Below are positions 7,451 through 18,725 of a stretch of 20,256 nt of DNA, one piece after another. Numbering within the stretch: the stretch's first letter is position 1; the number at the start of each line of letters is the position of its first letter. This stretch comes from a virus (Duplodnaviria > Heunggongvirae > Uroviricota > Caudoviricetes). Both the position numbers and the translations under genes were made by a program. The stretch lies in IMG/VR virus record IMGVR_UViG_2671180606_000002; one strand, 5' to 3'. A model generated the notes under the pieces. That model saw only the letters and a list, made by a program, of their open reading frames with translations. It did no database searches and was not told the origin of the DNA.

Positions 7451-7509
7451 GGACACCTTTACATTATTTATGTGTATATAATTTATTTATATACACAGTA
7501 AAGGTATCC
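7451..7509. repeat. Long imperfect palindrome with a perfect 10-bp core inverted repeat (TGTGTATATA-N7-TATATACACA)
   Basis: Core arms at 7471..7480 and 7488..7497 are exact reverse complements; outer arms GGACACCTTTAC (7451..7462) and GTAAAGGTATCC (7498..7509) pair with one mismatch. Confidence 0.6.
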
Positions 7510-8923: not shown

Positions 8924-11297
<2,374 letters not shown>

Positions 11298-12664: not shown

Positions 12665-13426
12665 TCACTTTTCCGATGCAACATGGCGGGAAGAATCAGT
12701 AATCTGTCGTACAATATCCCTGTGCTTGTTCAACTCACGCAGCGCGGCGCAGACACGCTCCCACTTCTGGACATGATTTTTCGCCCGACGCAGTTCGCGG
12801 TTTGCCATATGCAGTGATGGTAAAACCAGGTCATCCGCTCGCGTTTCAGTAAACGATGGCAGCGACTGCACAATGTCCGCCACAGTTTCTGTTTTAATAT
12901 CTTCCTGTGTTGCAGCCTCCTGTACTGGTAACGCAACACCTGCGGTCTGAGGAAAGGCCTTACCATCAGTTTCCGCTACCGATGCTGCTTTCGGCTCTGC
13001 TGGTAAATTATCGCCCGGTATGCAGTAACGAAATTTACCGCCCTGATTTACGCGAATCAGACGACCTTTGCTGATTGCCATTGCCAGCGTTGAAGCCACT
13101 TTGCGTGATGTGGTACCAAACAATGTAGCCAGCTCATCAGCCGTTTGTGGTCCTCGTTGTTCAATCGTCGCGGTTAAATCGCACTCTGAGATTTTCGCTA
13201 CTGTTGCTGTGGTGATTTCTTCCGGCAGTTCTGCCTGCGCTGGCTGTTCCTGCTGAACATTGTTATCAGCCACACGCCAGGTGTACGCGCTTTTATCAAC
13301 AAAACCAGCCTTTTTCAGTTCCCATAGTTCGTTCAGCACTTCTTCACGACTGATATCAAGTCGCGCAGCAAGTTCTATGGATGTGGCTTTTCCCATTGCT
13401 TTCAGTGCGTCAAAAACAGTCTCCAT
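12665..13426 (-). CDS. Phage protein with N-terminal winged-helix-like domain (possibly the full-length counterpart of Rac pseudogene YdaW)
   Basis: Start chosen at ATG 13426 ([43 protein letters not shown]...) with GGGAGA upstream; the longer ORF to 13477 would overlap the DnaC-like gene by 29 nt; acidic/Ala-Thr-rich linker. Confidence 0.65.
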
Positions 13427-13448
13427 TAAATTTTTCTCCCGGTAAAAA

Positions 13449-14195
13449 TTACTTCGCAATTCCTGGCTGGACGACATTCGGACGCCAGCTCTCCCAGTTA
13501 AAATTCACCCATCGCCCGCCGTTCATGGTCATGCGATCCATAATCCGCTCGCCGAGCAATGTTTTCATGGCCTCATAGTTCAGGTTTGTCAGCATCCCCA
13601 CGCTGCGCATCGACGCTGTCCGGCGATCAACAATCTGGTGCAGTACCACCTGCTCGTTTTTCGTCTCGCGCTGAATGCCAATTTCATCAAGAACCAGCAG
13701 ATCCACTTCGCACAGTTCCCGCAAAAATTTTTCGCCTGACTGCCCATCGTCATAGCTGGCGTGCAGGGCACTCATAACATCAGCCACGGTAACCACAATC
13801 ACTGTCTGACCGTCTTTCAGCAGGCGATTCCCGATAGCTGCCGCTAAGTGGTTCTTCCCGGTACCAGGTTTTCCGCTGAACGCAAAATTTGTACACCCGG
13901 TCATCAGTTCATCAGCGATGGATTTCGCCTGACTCAACGCGTATCGCTGCCCTTCGTTCTGCACCTGGTAATTCGAAAACGAGCATTTGCGGTGCAATGG
14001 CTGGATGCCAGAGCGATTCAGAATTTTTTCCACCCGCAACTGACGATTCTGACGGTTGATCTCCTCACAACGTTTCTGGCCTTCGGAAAGTTGCCACTCG
14101 CGCCACTCCGCTACCGTCTTGAATGGCGCGGTTACATGTGACGGGGCCAGTCTGCGGATACGTTCAAGAACATCGCCTGTCGCAATATTTTTCAT
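13449..14195 (-). CDS. ydaV: DnaC/IstB-like AAA+ helicase-loader (replication protein, YdaV-like)
   Basis: 248-aa ORF with Walker [16 protein letters not shown] and Walker [10 protein letters not shown]; ATG at 14195; follows the initiator-like gene as in lambdoid O-P modules. Confidence 0.9.
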
Positions 14196-14201
14196 GGTCA
14201 G

Positions 14202-15059
14202 TTACCCCCTGAAGCCTGGCGGGATCGCACTATCCGGTAACGAGACGGTGTTAACCTGTCGGAGTAACGTCTCAGGTCGAACACCTTTCGGCGCGAACAA
14301 GCCCTGGTATTCATTGGCGATGCTGTGTCGAATCACCTGCTCAGGTGAAAAACCCTGCTGGCGGAATTTTTCCAGCTCCCGTATCGCCCCGTTAGCGCCC
14401 TGCTCCGTTCGAATCGGTTTTCGCAATGCCTGGCGAAATTCAACCCACTCACGCCAAAGCGAGACAGAAATCCAGTTCGGCAAAGTAATATCCAGAGGGT
14501 CAAACTTTTTGACACCTCGATTCCCCCGGGGGGGATTTAGGGGGGGATCTGTTTTTAGATCTTTATCTGTATCTTTATTAGTTGCCTTTGTGTTGACATC
14601 ATGTTCAAACACCACTTCAACATCTGTTTGAACACCTGTTAAATTTCTCTCTTGTTTTGTTTGAACATCTGCTTCCTTTCTGCTTCTTCTGGCCTGAACA
14701 GATGCTTTTCCTGCGGCTGATTTTTTGGTTAATTTTTCCCTGACTGATGCCAGATCTTCCTCAATCCGAAGATGCACCCATTCCTCGCCGTTATCGCAAA
14801 AAAACTCCTGCAAGGATGGTTCAACATCAGCCCATCGCTCGTTAGTCAGACGGGCAATTTTTGCCAGCCTGTTTTTAGGTATTGGCTTTCCTGTTTGCCA
14901 GTAATTGAACATCAGCAACAAATACGCACCATGCTCCTCTGCTGACAAATGCATGGTGTCAGCCAGGTAATCAGCTATGTACAGTTGCATGTATGGTAAT
15001 GCGGCCATAATTGCCCCGTATGATGCTGCCCGGTGGCTTAGAATAAGCACAAACAGCAT
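14202..15059 (-). CDS. ydaU: Phage replication initiation/organiser protein (YdaU-like, DUF1376)
   Basis: 285-aa ORF, same length as recalled Rac YdaU; N-terminal YLADTMHLSAEEHGAYLLLMFNYW block; central charged KDTDKDLK repeat region encoded by iteron-like DNA. Confidence 0.8.
   Translation of the reverse strand: MLFVLILSHRAASYGAIMAALPYMQLYIADYLADTMHLSAEEHGAYLLLMFNYWQTGKPIPKNRLAKIARLTNERWADVEPSLQEFFCDNGEEWVHLRIEEDLASVREKLTKKSAAGKASVQARRSRKEADVQTKQERNLTGVQTDVEVVFEHDVNTKATNKDTDKDLKTDPPLNPPRGNRGVKKFDPLDITLPNWISVSLWREWVEFRQALRKPIRTEQGANGAIRELEKFRQQGFSPEQVIRHSIANEYQGLFAPKGVRPETLLRQVNTVSLPDSAIPPGFRG
14595..14709. repeat. Cluster of four iteron-like elements (core TGTT[C/T][A/G]AACA / CATCTG) inside the ydaU-like gene; candidate replication origin
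   Basis: ACATCATGTTCAAACACC, AACATCTGTTTGAACACC, TGTTTGAACATCTGC and CTGAACAGATGC within about 115 bp, next to AT-rich sequence; analogous to the lambda ori iterons inside gene O. Confidence 0.4.
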
Positions 15060-15071
15060 GGAAACTTTTGC

Positions 15072-15377
15072 TTAATGAACAATGACAGAATCGTCGGAAG
15101 AACCGCCGCCGCTGAAATGCGCTTTCCGGTAAACGGCTTGGACTGCATCATCATGCGCATCAATTGCCGTACTTAACGCTTCCTGCGCCGCCAGTAATGC
15201 ACGGCGTTCCAGGGTATCGAAGATGCAGAGTCGGTGACGCAGCTCGCGCGGAAGGATTGCCAGAATTGCTGGGATCAGCTTCTGAATTTTTTCTCTTTGC
15301 GTTTTCGTTTCACCTTTCAACCAACGGTGATAGATATTCTGCTGATTGTTCCAGTCCTTGCCTGGAACCAGGGGCAA
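15072..15377 (-). pseudogene. YdaT-like C-terminal fragment lacking an ATG start (only TTG at 15377)
   Basis: 101-aa frame with no internal Met, predicted helical C-terminus; sits immediately upstream of ydaU-like where Rac has ydaT (recalled as 140 aa); the expected upstream Cro-like and repressor genes are absent. Confidence 0.4.
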
Positions 15378-15480
15378 TTCGCCGCCCCCCTGGCGCAGAT
15401 ATTCTTCAGTAATTGCATTGGCTACCCATGCCTGCCCTTTTTCGGCTGCTAGGGCACCCGGCGTTAAGGGGAGAGATAAG

Positions 15481-15615
15481 ATGGTGCATTACGAAGTAGT
15501 TCAGTATTTGATGGATTGTTGCGGTATCACTTACAACCAGGCTGTGCAGGCTTTACGCAGCAACGACTGGGATCTCTGGCAGGCAGAAGTCGCTATACGT
15601 AGCAACAAGATGTGA
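15481..15615 (+). CDS. ydaG: Small Rac-type early-left protein (YdaG-like, 44 aa)
   Basis: ATG at 15481 with AAGGGGAGAG Shine-Dalgarno; product MVHYEVVQYLMDCCGITYNQAVQALRSNDWDLWQAEVAIRSNKM; size and position match Rac ydaG. Confidence 0.6.
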   Translation: MVHYEVVQYLMDCCGITYNQAVQALRSNDWDLWQAEVAIRSNKM

Positions 15616-15625
15616 GATTCGCAAA

Positions 15626-15781
15626 ATGCAAAAAATCGACCTCGGCAACAACGAATCCCTGGTGTGCGGCGTGTTCCCCAACCAGGATGGAACGTTCACT
15701 GCCATGACGTATACCAAAAGCAAAACATTTAAAACCGAAACTGGTGCGCGCCGATGGTTGGAGAAGCACACAGTAAGCTAA
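15626..15781 (+). CDS. ydaF: Small Rac-type early-left protein (YdaF/YdfA-like, 51 aa)
   Basis: ATG at 15626, 51-aa product MQKIDLGNNESLVCGVFPNQDGTFTAMTYTKSKTF...; 3-prime end overlaps sieB stop convergently by 4 nt; size and position match Rac ydaF. Confidence 0.6.
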   Translation: MQKIDLGNNESLVCGVFPNQDGTFTAMTYTKSKTFKTETGARRWLEKHTVS

Positions 15782-16266
15782 CGATTAAAACGTCTACTCC
15801 TGCTGTTCCAGAATAACTTCATAAAATGGGAGTATTTTTCGGTGACGAGATAATAAGAACAGTTTGCGCTATCACTCTGATGTTGAATGATGCCCTTCCG
15901 TTCTAATTTTTTCATAACCGGGTTACGGCAAGGAGAAGTGATAATAAGATTTCCTGTTTTAAGGAAATCTTTAAATACAGCGATTTCTTTCTCAGATAAA
16001 CGAAGCAATACTCGTTGCTCTGGTAGTAATGAATAATGCTTTTGAATATGTGCTCGCAATCTTGAGAAGGAAATGGCGACCACGAAAGAAAAGGCAAAAA
16101 CGATAATCTGAAAGAGCCAAGGTATTTCAGTATAAGCATTGAATGCGACAGTAAACTCTTTCGGTATCAGCCAGAGAGTGAGACCAAAAATGATAATCGT
16201 ATACATAAGTCTTTCGAGTGGCTCGTTAGCAAAAAGTTTCAACAATGGAGTAAATACATCCAACAT
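15778..16266 (-). CDS. sieB: Superinfection exclusion protein B
   Basis: 162-aa membrane protein from ATG at 16266 (MLDVFTPLLKLFANEPLERLMYTIIIFGLTLWLIPKEF...); opposite orientation to neighbours as in Rac and lambda; the six-frame ORF has a 41-codon upstream extension lacking support. Confidence 0.85.
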   Translation of the reverse strand: MLDVFTPLLKLFANEPLERLMYTIIIFGLTLWLIPKEFTVAFNAYTEIPWLFQIIVFAFSFVVAISFSRLRAHIQKHYSLLPEQRVLLRLSEKEIAVFKDFLKTGNLIITSPCRNPVMKKLERKGIIQHQSDSANCSYYLVTEKYSHFMKLFWNSRSRRFNR

Positions 16267-17550: not shown

Positions 17551-18000
17551 ATGAGCACAAAACCACTCTTCCTGTTACGGAAAGCGAAAAAATCATCCGG
17601 TGAACCTGACGTCGTCCTGTGGGCAAGCAACGATTTTGAATCGACCTGTGCCACTCTGGACTACCTGATCGTTAAGTCAGGTAAAAAACTGAGCAGCTAT
17701 TTTAAAGCTGTTGCCACGAATTTTCCTGTCGTTAATGACCTGCCCGCTGAAGGTGAGATCGATTTTACCTGGAGTGAACGCTATCAACTCAGCAAAGACT
17801 CCATGACATGGGAACTAAAACCGGGAGCAGCACCAGACAACGCTCACTATCAAGGCAATACCAACGTCAACGGCGAAGACATGACTGAGATTGAGGAGAA
17901 TATGCTACTCCCAATTTCTGGCCAGGAACTGCCCATTCGTTGGCTTGCTCAACACGGCAGCGAAAAACCGGTACCCACGTCTATGCTGTCGCAAGACTGA
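17551..18000 (+). pseudogene. recE: recE (exonuclease VIII) N-terminal remnant, about 141 native codons then out-of-frame tail
   Basis: Translation begins [46 protein letters not shown], the RecE N-terminus as recalled, and ends after [10 protein letters not shown]; RecE should be over 800 aa. Confidence 0.85.
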
Positions 18001-18328: not shown

Positions 18329-18523
18329 ATGAGATATGACAATGTTAAACCATGTCCATTTTGTGGTTGTCCATCAGTAACGGTGAAAGCCATTTCAGGA
18401 TATTACCGAGCGAAGTGTAACGGATGCGAATCCCGAACCGGTTATGGTGGAAGTGAAAAAGAAGCACTCGAAAGATGGAATAAACGAACCACTGGAAATA
18501 ATAATGGAGGTGTTCATGTATAA
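18329..18523 (+). CDS. ralR: Restriction alleviation protein RalR (Lar-like)
   Basis: 64-aa Cys-rich product MRYDNVKPCPFCGCPSVTVKAISGYYRAKCNGCESRTGYGG...; start chosen at ATG 18329 to match RalR length. Confidence 0.8.
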   Translation: MRYDNVKPCPFCGCPSVTVKAISGYYRAKCNGCESRTGYGGSEKEALERWNKRTTGNNNGGVHV

Positions 18524-18725
18524 AATTACCGCCACTATTGAAAAGGAAGGTGGCACTCCTACTAACTGGACAAGATATTCAAAATCTAAACTAACGAAAT
18601 CAGAATGCGAAAAAATGCTCTCAGGTAAAAAAGAAGCAGGCGTTTCCAGAGAGCAGAAAGTAAAACTGATAAATTTTAATTGCGAGAAACTTCAGTCCTC
18701 GAGAATTGCATTGTATTCAAATTAA
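18516..18725 (+). CDS. ydaC: Rac prophage protein YdaC
   Basis: 69-aa product from ATG at 18516 with GGAGGTG Shine-Dalgarno (MYKITATIEKEGGTPTNWTRYSK...); overlaps ralR stop. Confidence 0.75.
   Translation: MYKITATIEKEGGTPTNWTRYSKSKLTKSECEKMLSGKKEAGVSREQKVKLINFNCEKLQSSRIALYSN

What the first reader, a model, noticed from the sequence alone, without database searches (positions are those of the whole stretch)
14595..14709. Iteron-like repeat cluster inside the replication initiator gene: candidate prophage origin
Four copies of a motif built on TGTT(C/T)(A/G)AACA with flanking CATCTG, in both orientations, lie within about 115 bp in the middle of the ydaU-like gene, next to an AT-rich stretch. 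Lambdoid origins are typically iterons embedded in the initiator gene and bound by its product.
Basis: partly seen in the sequence, partly recalled or inferred. Interest (0 to 1): 0.4.

Follow-up and report, generated by a model that had tools for sequence, protein, structure and literature searches.

The report
Rac prophage replication origin inside ydaU
A cluster of short, helically phased palindromic repeats plus an A-rich tract in the middle of the Rac prophage gene ydaU is very probably the prophage's replication origin, built like the phage lambda origin but around an unrelated initiator domain; it is a well-supported but fairly ordinary find.

Summary
TGTTYRAACA occurs three times in the 20-kb window (0.23 expected), all within 66 bp of ydaU. 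A weaker fourth copy and two more degenerate copies lie beside them, spaced 33, 33, 12, 11 and 12 bp apart. A 42-bp A-rich tract (26% GC) follows.

- The repeats travel with the N-terminal DUF1376 domain in mosaic relatives. Genes with another N-domain but the same C-domain carry different repeats (GTTAC).
- In 42 of 78 diverse DUF1376 loci, the densest repeat cluster of the ~4.3-kb locus sits just after the domain (6% expected).
- Repeat spacings are multiples of 11 bp, not of 3.
- Codon use shows a DNA-level constraint. The word YGTTCAACG is fixed (Ser = TCA in 37 of 40 cases against 11% elsewhere). A (GATACA)n tract is encoded by ACA and GAT only, in hosts of 41-67% GC.
- The N-domain models as a winged helix. 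ydaV downstream is DnaC-like.
- The layout matches lambda O/ori almost base for base, without sequence homology.

Rac is known to hold an origin, oriJ; I found no base-level map of it.

Verdict: new member of a known kind, modest interest.

The parts
14202..15059 (-). ydaU, 285 aa: the candidate replication initiator that contains the origin
   Evidence: ORF. 100% identical to MG1655 ydaU. Pfam DUF1376 at aa 22-104. Matches PHROG 'primosomal protein' families, and aa 112-259 match phrog_678 'replication initiation O-like'.
14748..14996 (-). Coding region of the DUF1376 N-terminal domain (aa 22-104), predicted winged helix: the inferred iteron-binding domain
14589..14704 (.). Iteron cluster: six copies or half-copies of CAnnTGTT(C/T)(A/G)AACA, five in one orientation and one inverted
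   Evidence: Second-highest repeat density of the 20-kb window.
14691..14704 (-). c1, weak copy (CATCTGTTCAGGCC)
   Evidence: In Rac-SA53 it reads TGTTCAAGCC, closer to the consensus.
14658..14671 (-). c2 (CAGATGTTCAAACA); specific to the E. coli lineage and polymorphic
   Evidence: It reads TGTTCAAAAA or TATTCAAAAA in some alleles and is absent from relatives about 80% identical.
14625..14638 (-). c3 (CAGGTGTTCAAACA), a core palindrome
   Evidence: The arms YGTT..AACR are kept in 46 of 47 alleles.
14615..14626 (-). c4 (CAGATGTTGAAG), a half-site between the two core palindromes
14597..14613 (+). c5, the inverted core palindrome (TGTTCAAACA on the + strand, TGTTTGAACA on the coding strand)
   Evidence: The arms are invariant while the centre varies (TG, CG, TA, GC) and the amino acids change.
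14589..14600 (-). c6, degenerate copy (GATGTCAACACA)
14547..14588 (.). A-rich tract (on the coding strand), a degenerate GATACA-type hexamer array: the inferred DNA unwinding element
   Evidence: 26% GC, 25 T and 7 A on the + strand. Least stable part of ydaU. Strongest AT skew of the region profiled, 13400-15800. Homologous position to the perfect (GATACA)n tracts of relatives.
14523..14546 (.). C/G tract CCCCCCCTAAATCCCCCCCGGGGG (coding strand; peptide PPLNPPRG). It lies at the junction between the N-terminal/origin module and the C-terminal module
   Evidence: Partial matches in other genomes break at window positions ~14553-14575. The 12-bp unit is expanded in O145:NM.
14202..14522 (-). 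Coding region of the C-terminal domain, shared with initiators that have other N-domains: the inferred helicase-loader recruitment module
   Evidence: 87-97% DNA identity to genes with an unrelated N-terminus. Hit to phrog_678 'O-like'.
13449..14195 (-). ydaV, a DnaC-like helicase loader, the next gene in the operon
   Evidence: Pfam IstB_IS21 and Bac_DnaA. NCBIfam PRK12377 at 507 bits and DnaC PRK07952 at 309 bits.
14817..14831 (.). Possible outlying copy (GCTGATGTTGAACCA on the coding strand) inside the domain-coding part; status uncertain
   Evidence: Third member of repeat family D1. The Pseudomonas phage homologue has two GTTGAACG words at the equivalent place.

Best explanation
The segment 14547-14704 is the replication origin of this Rac-type prophage, most likely the genetically defined oriJ. 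It is embedded in its own initiator gene, ydaU.

Inferred mechanism:
1. Dimers of the YdaU N-terminal winged-helix (DUF1376) domain bind the palindromic sites (arms YGTT/AACR).
2. The sites are spaced at about 11-bp multiples, so the bound proteins sit on one face of the helix and form a nucleoprotein complex.
3. That complex strains and opens the adjacent A-rich GATACA-type tract (14547-14588).
4. The YdaU C-terminal module then recruits YdaV (DnaC-like) with host DnaB to the opened DNA.
5. Transcription through the gene from the RacR-controlled ydaS promoter probably helps, as it does in lambda.

What is shown: the repeats, their phasing, their DNA-level conservation, their linkage to the N-domain, the fold prediction, and the gene order. 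What is inferred: binding, unwinding, helicase loading and origin firing.
For: (1) The cluster is statistically real.

(3) In 42 of 78 non-identical DUF1376 loci from gamma-, beta- and alpha-proteobacteria, the densest repeat window of the ~4.3-kb locus lies 280-520 nt after the gene start. 6.4% is expected; binomial p ~1e-29.

(4) Repeat spacings in that segment are 11 bp in 41 of 76 loci, 22 bp in 25 and 33 bp in 15. Multiples of 11 account for 108 of 395 distances against 36 expected. The control coding DNA downstream shows the codon period instead: 163 of 313 distances are multiples of 3.

(5) Codon use points to a DNA-level constraint. In [R/C]ST tripeptides of the linker, Ser is TCA in 37 of 40 cases against 80 of 738 elsewhere. 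Arg is CGT in 25 of 31 against 166 of 1079. The DNA word YGTTCAACG is therefore kept even in hosts of 58-67% GC. (TD)n tracts are encoded only by ACA (86 of 86) and GAT (89 of 89), in 23 loci of 41-67% GC.

(6) Among 47 Rac-like alleles, the arms of the two core palindromes are invariant while centres, flanks and amino acids vary.

(7) The N-domain model is a winged helix resembling initiator winged-helix domains. The C-terminus matches an 'O-like' PHROG. ydaV is DnaC-like.

(8) The layout matches lambda. Lambda O has its DNA-binding domain at aa 22-115, iterons at gene nt 349-433, then an A-rich tract. ydaU has its domain at aa 22-104, repeats at nt 356-471, then the A-rich tract at nt 472-513.

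(9) Rac is reported to have an active origin, oriJ (PMC3945230). That paper's 'oriJ' primers lie in ydaV, 0.7 kb away.

(10) Sequenced phages carry this gene (vB_EcoS-683R6, 99.7% identical over the whole gene) or its N-domain-plus-repeat half (Rac-SA53, 96% identical over that half).
Against: - No binding or replication data exist for this segment.
- c2 is polymorphic and c1 is only a half-site, so 'four iterons' overstates the conserved core.
- The A-rich tract is the least stable part of ydaU but only the 90th-96th percentile of the window. A less stable stretch lies at ~15937 in the same module.
- The match to the oriC 13-mer and the DnaA-box counts are at chance level.
- The family statistics treat related sequences as independent.
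- The only published 'oriJ' amplicon I could locate lies in ydaV, not ydaU. That stretch shows nothing origin-like.
- In this particular window the racR-ydaS promoter region is deleted and no sigma-70-like promoter is found in 14100-15900. The origin is probably silent here.
Confidence: 0.8

Rival explanations
1. The repeats are YdaU (or YdaS/YdaT/RacR/host factor) operator sites. They would regulate transcription or translation of ydaU-ydaV, for example by autorepression or a roadblock, and would not be an origin.
For: Palindromic, helically phased sites are also typical of operators. No replication data exist. The published 'oriJ' amplicon lies in ydaV.
Against: - The motif occurs nowhere else in the window, including what remains of the immunity region.
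- The sites are coupled in relatives from many bacterial groups to an A-rich or (GATACA)n tract (23 of 76 loci carry the perfect form) and to an initiator plus helicase-loader gene pair.
- The position equals that of the lambda iterons.
- No promoter-like site lies nearby.
Confidence: 0.1
2. The DNA repeats are only the shadow of a repetitive or low-complexity peptide linker (xVQT and KDTD motifs) and have no function at the DNA level.
For: c1, c2 and c3 are in the same reading frame (33-bp spacing) and encode SVQA, DVQT and GVQT. TD repeats are common in relatives.
Against: - c5 is inverted and in another frame.
- In relatives the copies are 11 bp apart, so out of frame.
- Codon choice is essentially fixed, against host bias.
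- Amino acids change (FE, FK, LQ) while the DNA arms stay.
Confidence: 0.05
3. The inverted copies form a conserved mRNA or single-stranded DNA hairpin, for example to control translation or RNA stability.
For: The RNA fold of 14540-14720 (minus strand) pairs c2 with c5. The energy is -34.1 kcal/mol with z = -2.0.
Against: - The z-score is weak.
- c2 is missing or mutated in close relatives.
- c3 (9 nt in relatives) and c5 (10 nt) are not strictly complementary there.
- 11-bp phasing is a property of duplex DNA.
Confidence: 0.03
4. Chance clustering of a short palindrome in an AT-rich stretch.
For: The motif is short, and 1 of 100 shuffles reached 3 matches somewhere in the window.
Against: All three exact matches fall within 66 bp. 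The same architecture recurs at the same gene position in dozens of distant homologues.
Confidence: 0.02

Closest known systems
Phage lambda ori (four iterons plus an AT-rich region inside gene O, bound by the O N-terminal domain; O C-terminus binds P, which delivers DnaB)
   Same: - A repeat array with dyad symmetry lies immediately 3' of the part of the initiator gene that encodes the DNA-binding domain. In lambda this is gene nt 349-433; in ydaU nt 356-471.
- An A-rich, strand-asymmetric tract follows on the same side.
- The next gene is the helicase-loading partner.
- The operon is under the immunity repressor.
- The repeats travel with the N-terminal domain in mosaic relatives.
- The YdaU C-terminal part matches the PHROG 'replication initiation O-like'.
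   Different: - There is no sequence similarity between YdaU and lambda O (BLASTP E 0.77).
- The N-domain is DUF1376, not Phage_rep_O PF04492.
- The sites are shorter: a ~10-bp palindrome core against 18-19 bp.
- Orientation is mixed and spacing is 11/12/33 bp rather than ~20-24 bp.
- The partner is DnaC-like (AAA+), not a lambda P type.
oriJ, the autonomously replicating origin of the Rac prophage. Cloned by Diaz and Pritchard in 1978-79 (from my own knowledge) and studied by Potrykus et al. 2000, PMID 10964622 (known to me only as a reference-list entry; the paper is not held)
   Same: Same prophage and same replication module. PMC3945230 states that Rac has an active origin, oriJ, and used primers in ydaV as its marker.
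   Different: - I found no base-level definition of oriJ in the papers I could search.
- The MG1655 RefSeq record has no origin feature in Rac.
- The published amplicon (window 13784-13938) is 0.7 kb from the repeats and shows no origin-like features.
- The identity of this cluster with oriJ is therefore inferred.
Iteron origins of plasmids with winged-helix initiators (RepA/pPS10, pi/R6K, TrfA/RK2, RepA_N of staphylococcal plasmids)
   Same: - The sites are phased on the helical repeat.
- An AT-rich unwinding region lies next to them.
   Different: - Plasmid iterons are usually 17-22-bp direct repeats outside the rep gene. Here the sites are short palindromes inside the gene.
- No DnaA-box cluster is present.
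DnaA-trio elements of bacterial chromosomal origins (periodic GAT motifs next to initiator boxes; from my own knowledge)
   Same: A strictly periodic GAT-containing repeat, (GATACA)n, lies directly beside the initiator-binding sites in many DUF1376 genes. It is degenerate in this window.
   Different: The period is 6 nt, not 3. The initiator is different. No evidence of single-strand binding exists. This is an analogy only.

Membership tests
Lambdoid-type phage origin (iterons inside the initiator gene) | Three or more repeated sites with dyad symmetry, clustered within ~100-150 bp | tested here: met
   Three exact palindromes plus three degenerate copies in 116 bp. Repeat density is comparable to the lambda ori control.
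Lambdoid-type phage origin (iterons inside the initiator gene) | The sites lie inside the initiator gene, just 3' of the part that encodes the DNA-binding domain | tested here: met
   DUF1376 at aa 22-104; repeats at aa 119-157. Lambda: domain at aa 22-115, iterons at aa 117-145.
Lambdoid-type phage origin (iterons inside the initiator gene) | An adjacent AT-rich, strand-asymmetric region that can serve as the unwinding element | tested here: met
   14547-14588 is 26% GC with T:A = 25:7 on the + strand and is the least stable part of ydaU. Actual unwinding was not tested.
Lambdoid-type phage origin (iterons inside the initiator gene) | Repeat sequence co-varies or co-inherits with the initiator's N-terminal domain in mosaic relatives | tested here: met
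   [not shown]
Lambdoid-type phage origin (iterons inside the initiator gene) | Conservation at the DNA level beyond the needs of the encoded protein | tested here: met
   Codon fixation. Invariant arms with variable amino acids. 11-bp rather than 3-bp spacing.
Lambdoid-type phage origin (iterons inside the initiator gene) | The initiator protein binds the repeats | not testable with these tools
   Only a predicted winged-helix fold is available.
Lambdoid-type phage origin (iterons inside the initiator gene) | The segment supports initiator-dependent autonomous replication | not testable with these tools
   Rac is reported to have an active origin, oriJ, but it is not mapped to these bases in any paper I could read.
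Lambda O protein family (Pfam PF04492, Phage_rep_O) | N-terminal Phage_rep_O domain | tested here: not met
   YdaU matches only DUF1376. Lambda O matches PF04492. BLASTP of YdaU against lambda O gives E 0.77.
Lambda O protein family (Pfam PF04492, Phage_rep_O) | C-terminal module shared with O-like initiators | tested here: inconclusive
   phrog_678 'replication initiation O-like' matches aa 112-259 at E 2.5e-24. No direct similarity to lambda O itself was found.
oriC-type, DnaA-dependent origin | A cluster of DnaA boxes (TTWTNCACA) | tested here: not met
   52 matches with up to one mismatch against 53 expected. The only mismatch-free box in the window is at 2452-2460, and no box lies in the repeat cluster or A-rich tract.
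oriC-type, DnaA-dependent origin | AT-rich 13-mers GATCTnTTnTTTT | tested here: inconclusive
   GATCTGTTTTTAG at 14546-14558 has two mismatches, but such matches are at chance level in the window (18 found, 13.9 expected).
oriJ of Rac | Lies within the minimal self-replicating Rac fragment | not testable with these tools
   The primary papers are not held. The 'oriJ' primers of PMC3945230 map to ydaV at 13784-13938. There is no origin feature in NC_000913.3.
Plasmid iteron origins with winged-helix Rep proteins | Winged-helix initiator and 17-22-bp direct iterons outside the rep gene | tested here: inconclusive
   The winged-helix fold is met with moderate scores. The site length, the mixed orientation and the in-gene position differ.

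The most novel reading that the evidence does not exclude
DUF1376 (YdaU-type) initiators define a widespread origin class across Proteobacteria that has hardly been studied experimentally. Two DNA elements are conserved as DNA inside the initiator gene: a ~9-bp palindromic iteron word (YGTTCAACG) repeated every 11 bp, and a perfect (GATACA)n hexamer array. Both are kept from enterobacteria to alpha-proteobacteria in hosts of 41-67% GC. The hexamer array could be a periodic element for single-strand binding or unwinding, analogous to DnaA-trios. It might be read by the DnaT-like C-terminal domains that many family members carry.
Probability: 0.4. Interest if true: 0.6.

Novelty: new member of a known kind. 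Interest (0 to 1): 0.38.

Why it matters
- It gives base-level coordinates for the long-known but poorly mapped Rac origin: MG1655 1,421,474-1,421,631.
- It assigns a function to ydaU, which RefSeq still labels 'DUF1376 domain-containing protein'.
- It offers a simple rule for finding the origin in hundreds of prophages and phages that carry DUF1376 initiators.
- It shows that the lambda design, with the origin placed in the linker-coding part of the initiator gene, has been reached with an unrelated DNA-binding domain.
- The practical uses are modest: Rac-based replicons, reading copy-number changes after racR loss, and prophage annotation.

Tried and rejected
- **oriC-like features.** The 13-mer GATCTGTTTTTAG at 14546 looked attractive, but such matches are at chance level. 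DnaA boxes are also at chance level.
- **Helix stability.** The A-rich tract is the minimum within ydaU but not within the window or the module. I use it only as supporting evidence.
- **Automatic 'best repeated 8-mer' per locus**, meant to correlate iteron word with recognition-helix sequence. The result was too noisy to claim covariation beyond the domain-swap cases.
- **Literature.** Searches for oriJ, ydaU, DUF1376 and 'Rac prophage' with iteron found no map of oriJ. Potrykus et al. 2000 is not held.
- **The published 'oriJ' primers** map inside ydaV, where I found nothing origin-like. I treat them as a nearby marker, not a definition.
- **RNA explanations.** There is no Rfam family in ydaU. 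The fold is only weakly better than shuffles.
- **NCBIfam** has no model that matches YdaU.
- **Not done.** I did not run a full-length structure prediction or a further deep protein search, because they would not bear on the DNA element.

Full report
**What the window is.** The window is a Rac-type prophage of E. coli. The gene at 14202-15059 (minus strand, 285 aa) is 100% identical to ydaU of K-12 MG1655. It is followed on the same strand by ydaV (13449-14195) and a DUF1627 gene, and preceded by a truncated ydaT. The best-matching complete genome is strain MS15047. Relative to it and to MG1655, the window carries two deletions. One of them removes racR, ydaS and the start of ydaT.

**Check of the observation.** TGTTYRAACA matches exactly three times in 20,256 bp, at 14602, 14625 and 14658. 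Shuffles give 0.23 on average. The repeat finder reports the same units as direct and inverted repeats.

On the coding strand the copies are:
- c1 CATCTGTTCAGGCC, 14691-14704
- c2 CAGATGTTCAAACA, 14658-14671
- c3 CAGGTGTTCAAACA, 14625-14638
- c4 CAGATGTTGAAG, 14615-14626
- c5 inverted, GGTGTTTGAACATGATG, 14597-14613
- c6 GATGTCAACACA, 14589-14600

Successive TGTT starts are 33, 33, 12, 11 and 12 bp apart, all close to multiples of the helical repeat.

Next comes a 42-bp tract (14547-14588) of 26% GC that is A-rich on the coding strand. It is the least stable part of ydaU and has the strongest AT skew of the region I profiled, 13400-15800. After it comes a C/G tract (14523-14546).

With a simple repeat-density score, the cluster ranks second among all 120-bp windows of the 20-kb window, at 615. 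The lambda origin, used as a positive control, is the top window of its locus at 667.

**Mosaic relatives.** Matches to ydaU in 1,506 E. coli genomes and in phages break at window positions ~14553-14575.
- Rac-SA53 and O55/O157-type genes share the N-terminal half, the repeats and the A-rich tract at 96% identity. They continue into a different, DnaT-like C-terminus.

The repeats therefore belong to the N-terminal module. This is the pattern known from lambdoid O genes.

**Family-wide evidence.** I collected 80 loci encoding DUF1376 homologues from one genome per species. They share 41-100% identity with the YdaU N-domain and come from gamma-, beta- and alpha-proteobacteria and a few other groups.

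- *Position.* In 42 of 78 non-identical loci, the densest repeat window of the whole ~4.3-kb locus lies 280-520 nt after the gene start. That is the segment just after the domain. 6.4% is expected; binomial p ~1e-29.
- *Motif by group.* The repeated word differs between groups: GTTCAAC in most gamma-proteobacteria, ATGCTCAGC in Bosea, AGCAATGCTTC, CTGCGGACGCA and others.
- *Spacing.* The spacing is 11 bp in 41 of 76 loci, 22 bp in 25 and 33 bp in 15. Multiples of 11 make up 108 of 395 distances against 36 expected. Control coding DNA downstream shows the 3-bp codon period instead.
- *Frame and orientation.* In 72 of 76 loci the direct copies are out of codon phase, and in 71 there are inverted copies.
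- *Codon use in the iteron word.* In the [R/C]ST tripeptides of the linker, Ser is TCA in 37 of 40 cases against 11% elsewhere in the same genes. Arg is CGT in 25 of 31 against 15% elsewhere. What is conserved is the DNA word YGTTCAACG, even in hosts of 58-67% GC.
- *Codon use in the TD tract.* The TDTDTD peptide that follows in 23 loci is encoded only by ACA (86 of 86) and GAT (89 of 89). It is a perfect (GATACA)n array in hosts of 41-67% GC. The A-rich tract of this window is a degenerate version of it.
- *Allele variation.* Among 47 distinct Rac-like alleles, the arms YGTT..AACR of c3 and c5 are unchanged in 46. The centre bases vary (CA, C, TG, CG, TA, GC), as do the flanks and the encoded amino acids.

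The counts do treat related sequences as independent.

**Comparison with lambda.** Lambda O has its Phage_rep_O domain at aa 22-115. Its four annotated iterons lie at gene nt 349-433 and are followed by an A-rich tract. ydaU has DUF1376 at aa 22-104, the repeats at nt 356-471 and the A-rich tract at nt 472-513. The two proteins share no detectable sequence similarity. It works like a lambda origin, but YdaU is not a member of the O family.

**Literature.** PMC3945230 states that Rac has an active origin, oriJ. Its 'oriJ' primers amplify window 13784-13938 inside ydaV, 0.7 kb from the repeats. I see nothing origin-like there. The MG1655 RefSeq record annotates no origin in Rac. The papers that cloned and studied oriJ are not available to me, so I cannot exclude that the repeats were already described.

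**Most likely mechanism (inferred).**
1. YdaU dimers bind the phased palindromes through the winged helix.
2. The resulting complex opens the adjacent A-rich GATACA-type tract.
3. The C-terminal module brings in YdaV with DnaB.
4. Transcription from the RacR-controlled promoter assists.

In this window that promoter region is deleted, and no promoter-like site is found in 14100-15900. The origin is probably silent here.

**Rivals.**
- Operator sites without origin function cannot be excluded. They do not explain the recurrent coupling to an unwinding-type tract and to a helicase-loader gene.
- A peptide-repeat origin for the DNA repeats is contradicted.
- An RNA hairpin is weakly supported (z -2.0) and is not conserved.
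- Chance is excluded by the comparative data.

**Weak points.**
- c1 and c2 are not conserved, so the core is c3-c4-c5.
- The unwinding element is assigned by analogy. The 13-mer and DnaA-box scans are at chance level.
- Fold similarity is moderate.

**Verdict.** This is a real feature and very probably the Rac origin. It is a new member of the known class of origins that lie inside the initiator gene, built on an unrelated initiator domain. The family-wide DNA-level conservation of YGTTCAACG and (GATACA)n is the most interesting by-product.

Noticed in passing
window 15455-15456 (junction): Relative to MG1655 and strain MS15047, 1,239 bp are missing here. The loss covers racR, ydaS and the first 38 nt of ydaT. 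The ydaT'-ydaU-ydaV operon has therefore lost its repressor and its native promoter. No sigma-70-like site is found in 14100-15900. None of 5,426 complete E. coli genomes matches the window in one piece.
   Followed up: partly
window ~17968-17980 (junction): A second deletion of 2,666 bp, relative to MG1655 and MS15047, removes most of recE and the 5' end of recT.
   Followed up: partly
window 8924-11249, minus strand: A three-gene cargo cassette sits inside the prophage. It holds a SIR2 protein (PADLOC ThsA-like, E 9e-32), a non-canonical purine NTP pyrophosphatase and an adenosine deaminase (PADLOC CARF_ADA-like, E 6.5e-36). A TetR regulator gene lies next to it. It looks like an anti-phage defence island and is absent from K-12 Rac.
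   Followed up: partly
window 7463-7500: This AT-rich intergenic stretch has the highest repeat density of the whole window. It holds an inverted repeat: TGTGTATATAA, four spacer bases (TTTA), then TTTATATACACA, whose last 11 bases are the complement of the first arm. Its function is unknown.
   Followed up: no
window 14523-14546; L003 (O145:NM) ydaU: The 12-bp unit CCCCCCCTAAAT (peptide PLNP) at the module junction varies in copy number between strains. The O145:NM strain FWSEC0002 has two extra copies (882-bp gene).
   Followed up: no
L110, L113, L114, L116, L118 (genome-contig loci): Some DUF1376 initiators carry an inserted T5orf172-like domain after the N-domain. In L110, L113, L114 and L116 the DNA encoding the insert is full of CTACG/CGTAG words (for example CCGTAGTAGCTACG). 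This is a different repeat set in an unusual place.
   Followed up: no
window 13784-13938 (inside ydaV): The primers called 'oriJ' in PMC3945230 amplify this stretch of ydaV, not ydaU. No repeats or AT-rich tract are present there.
   Followed up: yes
window 14817-14831: An extra GATGTTGAAC word lies inside the DUF1376-coding part. The Pseudomonas phage UFJF_PfDIW6 homologue has two GTTGAACG words at the equivalent position. It could be an outlying binding site or a coincidence of a conserved DVE peptide.
   Followed up: no
window 18522-18700, minus strand: The RalA antitoxin sRNA (Rfam RF02694, 225 bits) is present and intact.
   Followed up: no
L091, L092 (E. coli ECMA0423, Shigella flexneri SFBU1023): In these genomes ydaU is interrupted right after copy c5. 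Unrelated sequence follows GTGTTCGAACATGATG, so the gene is broken at the origin itself.
   Followed up: no
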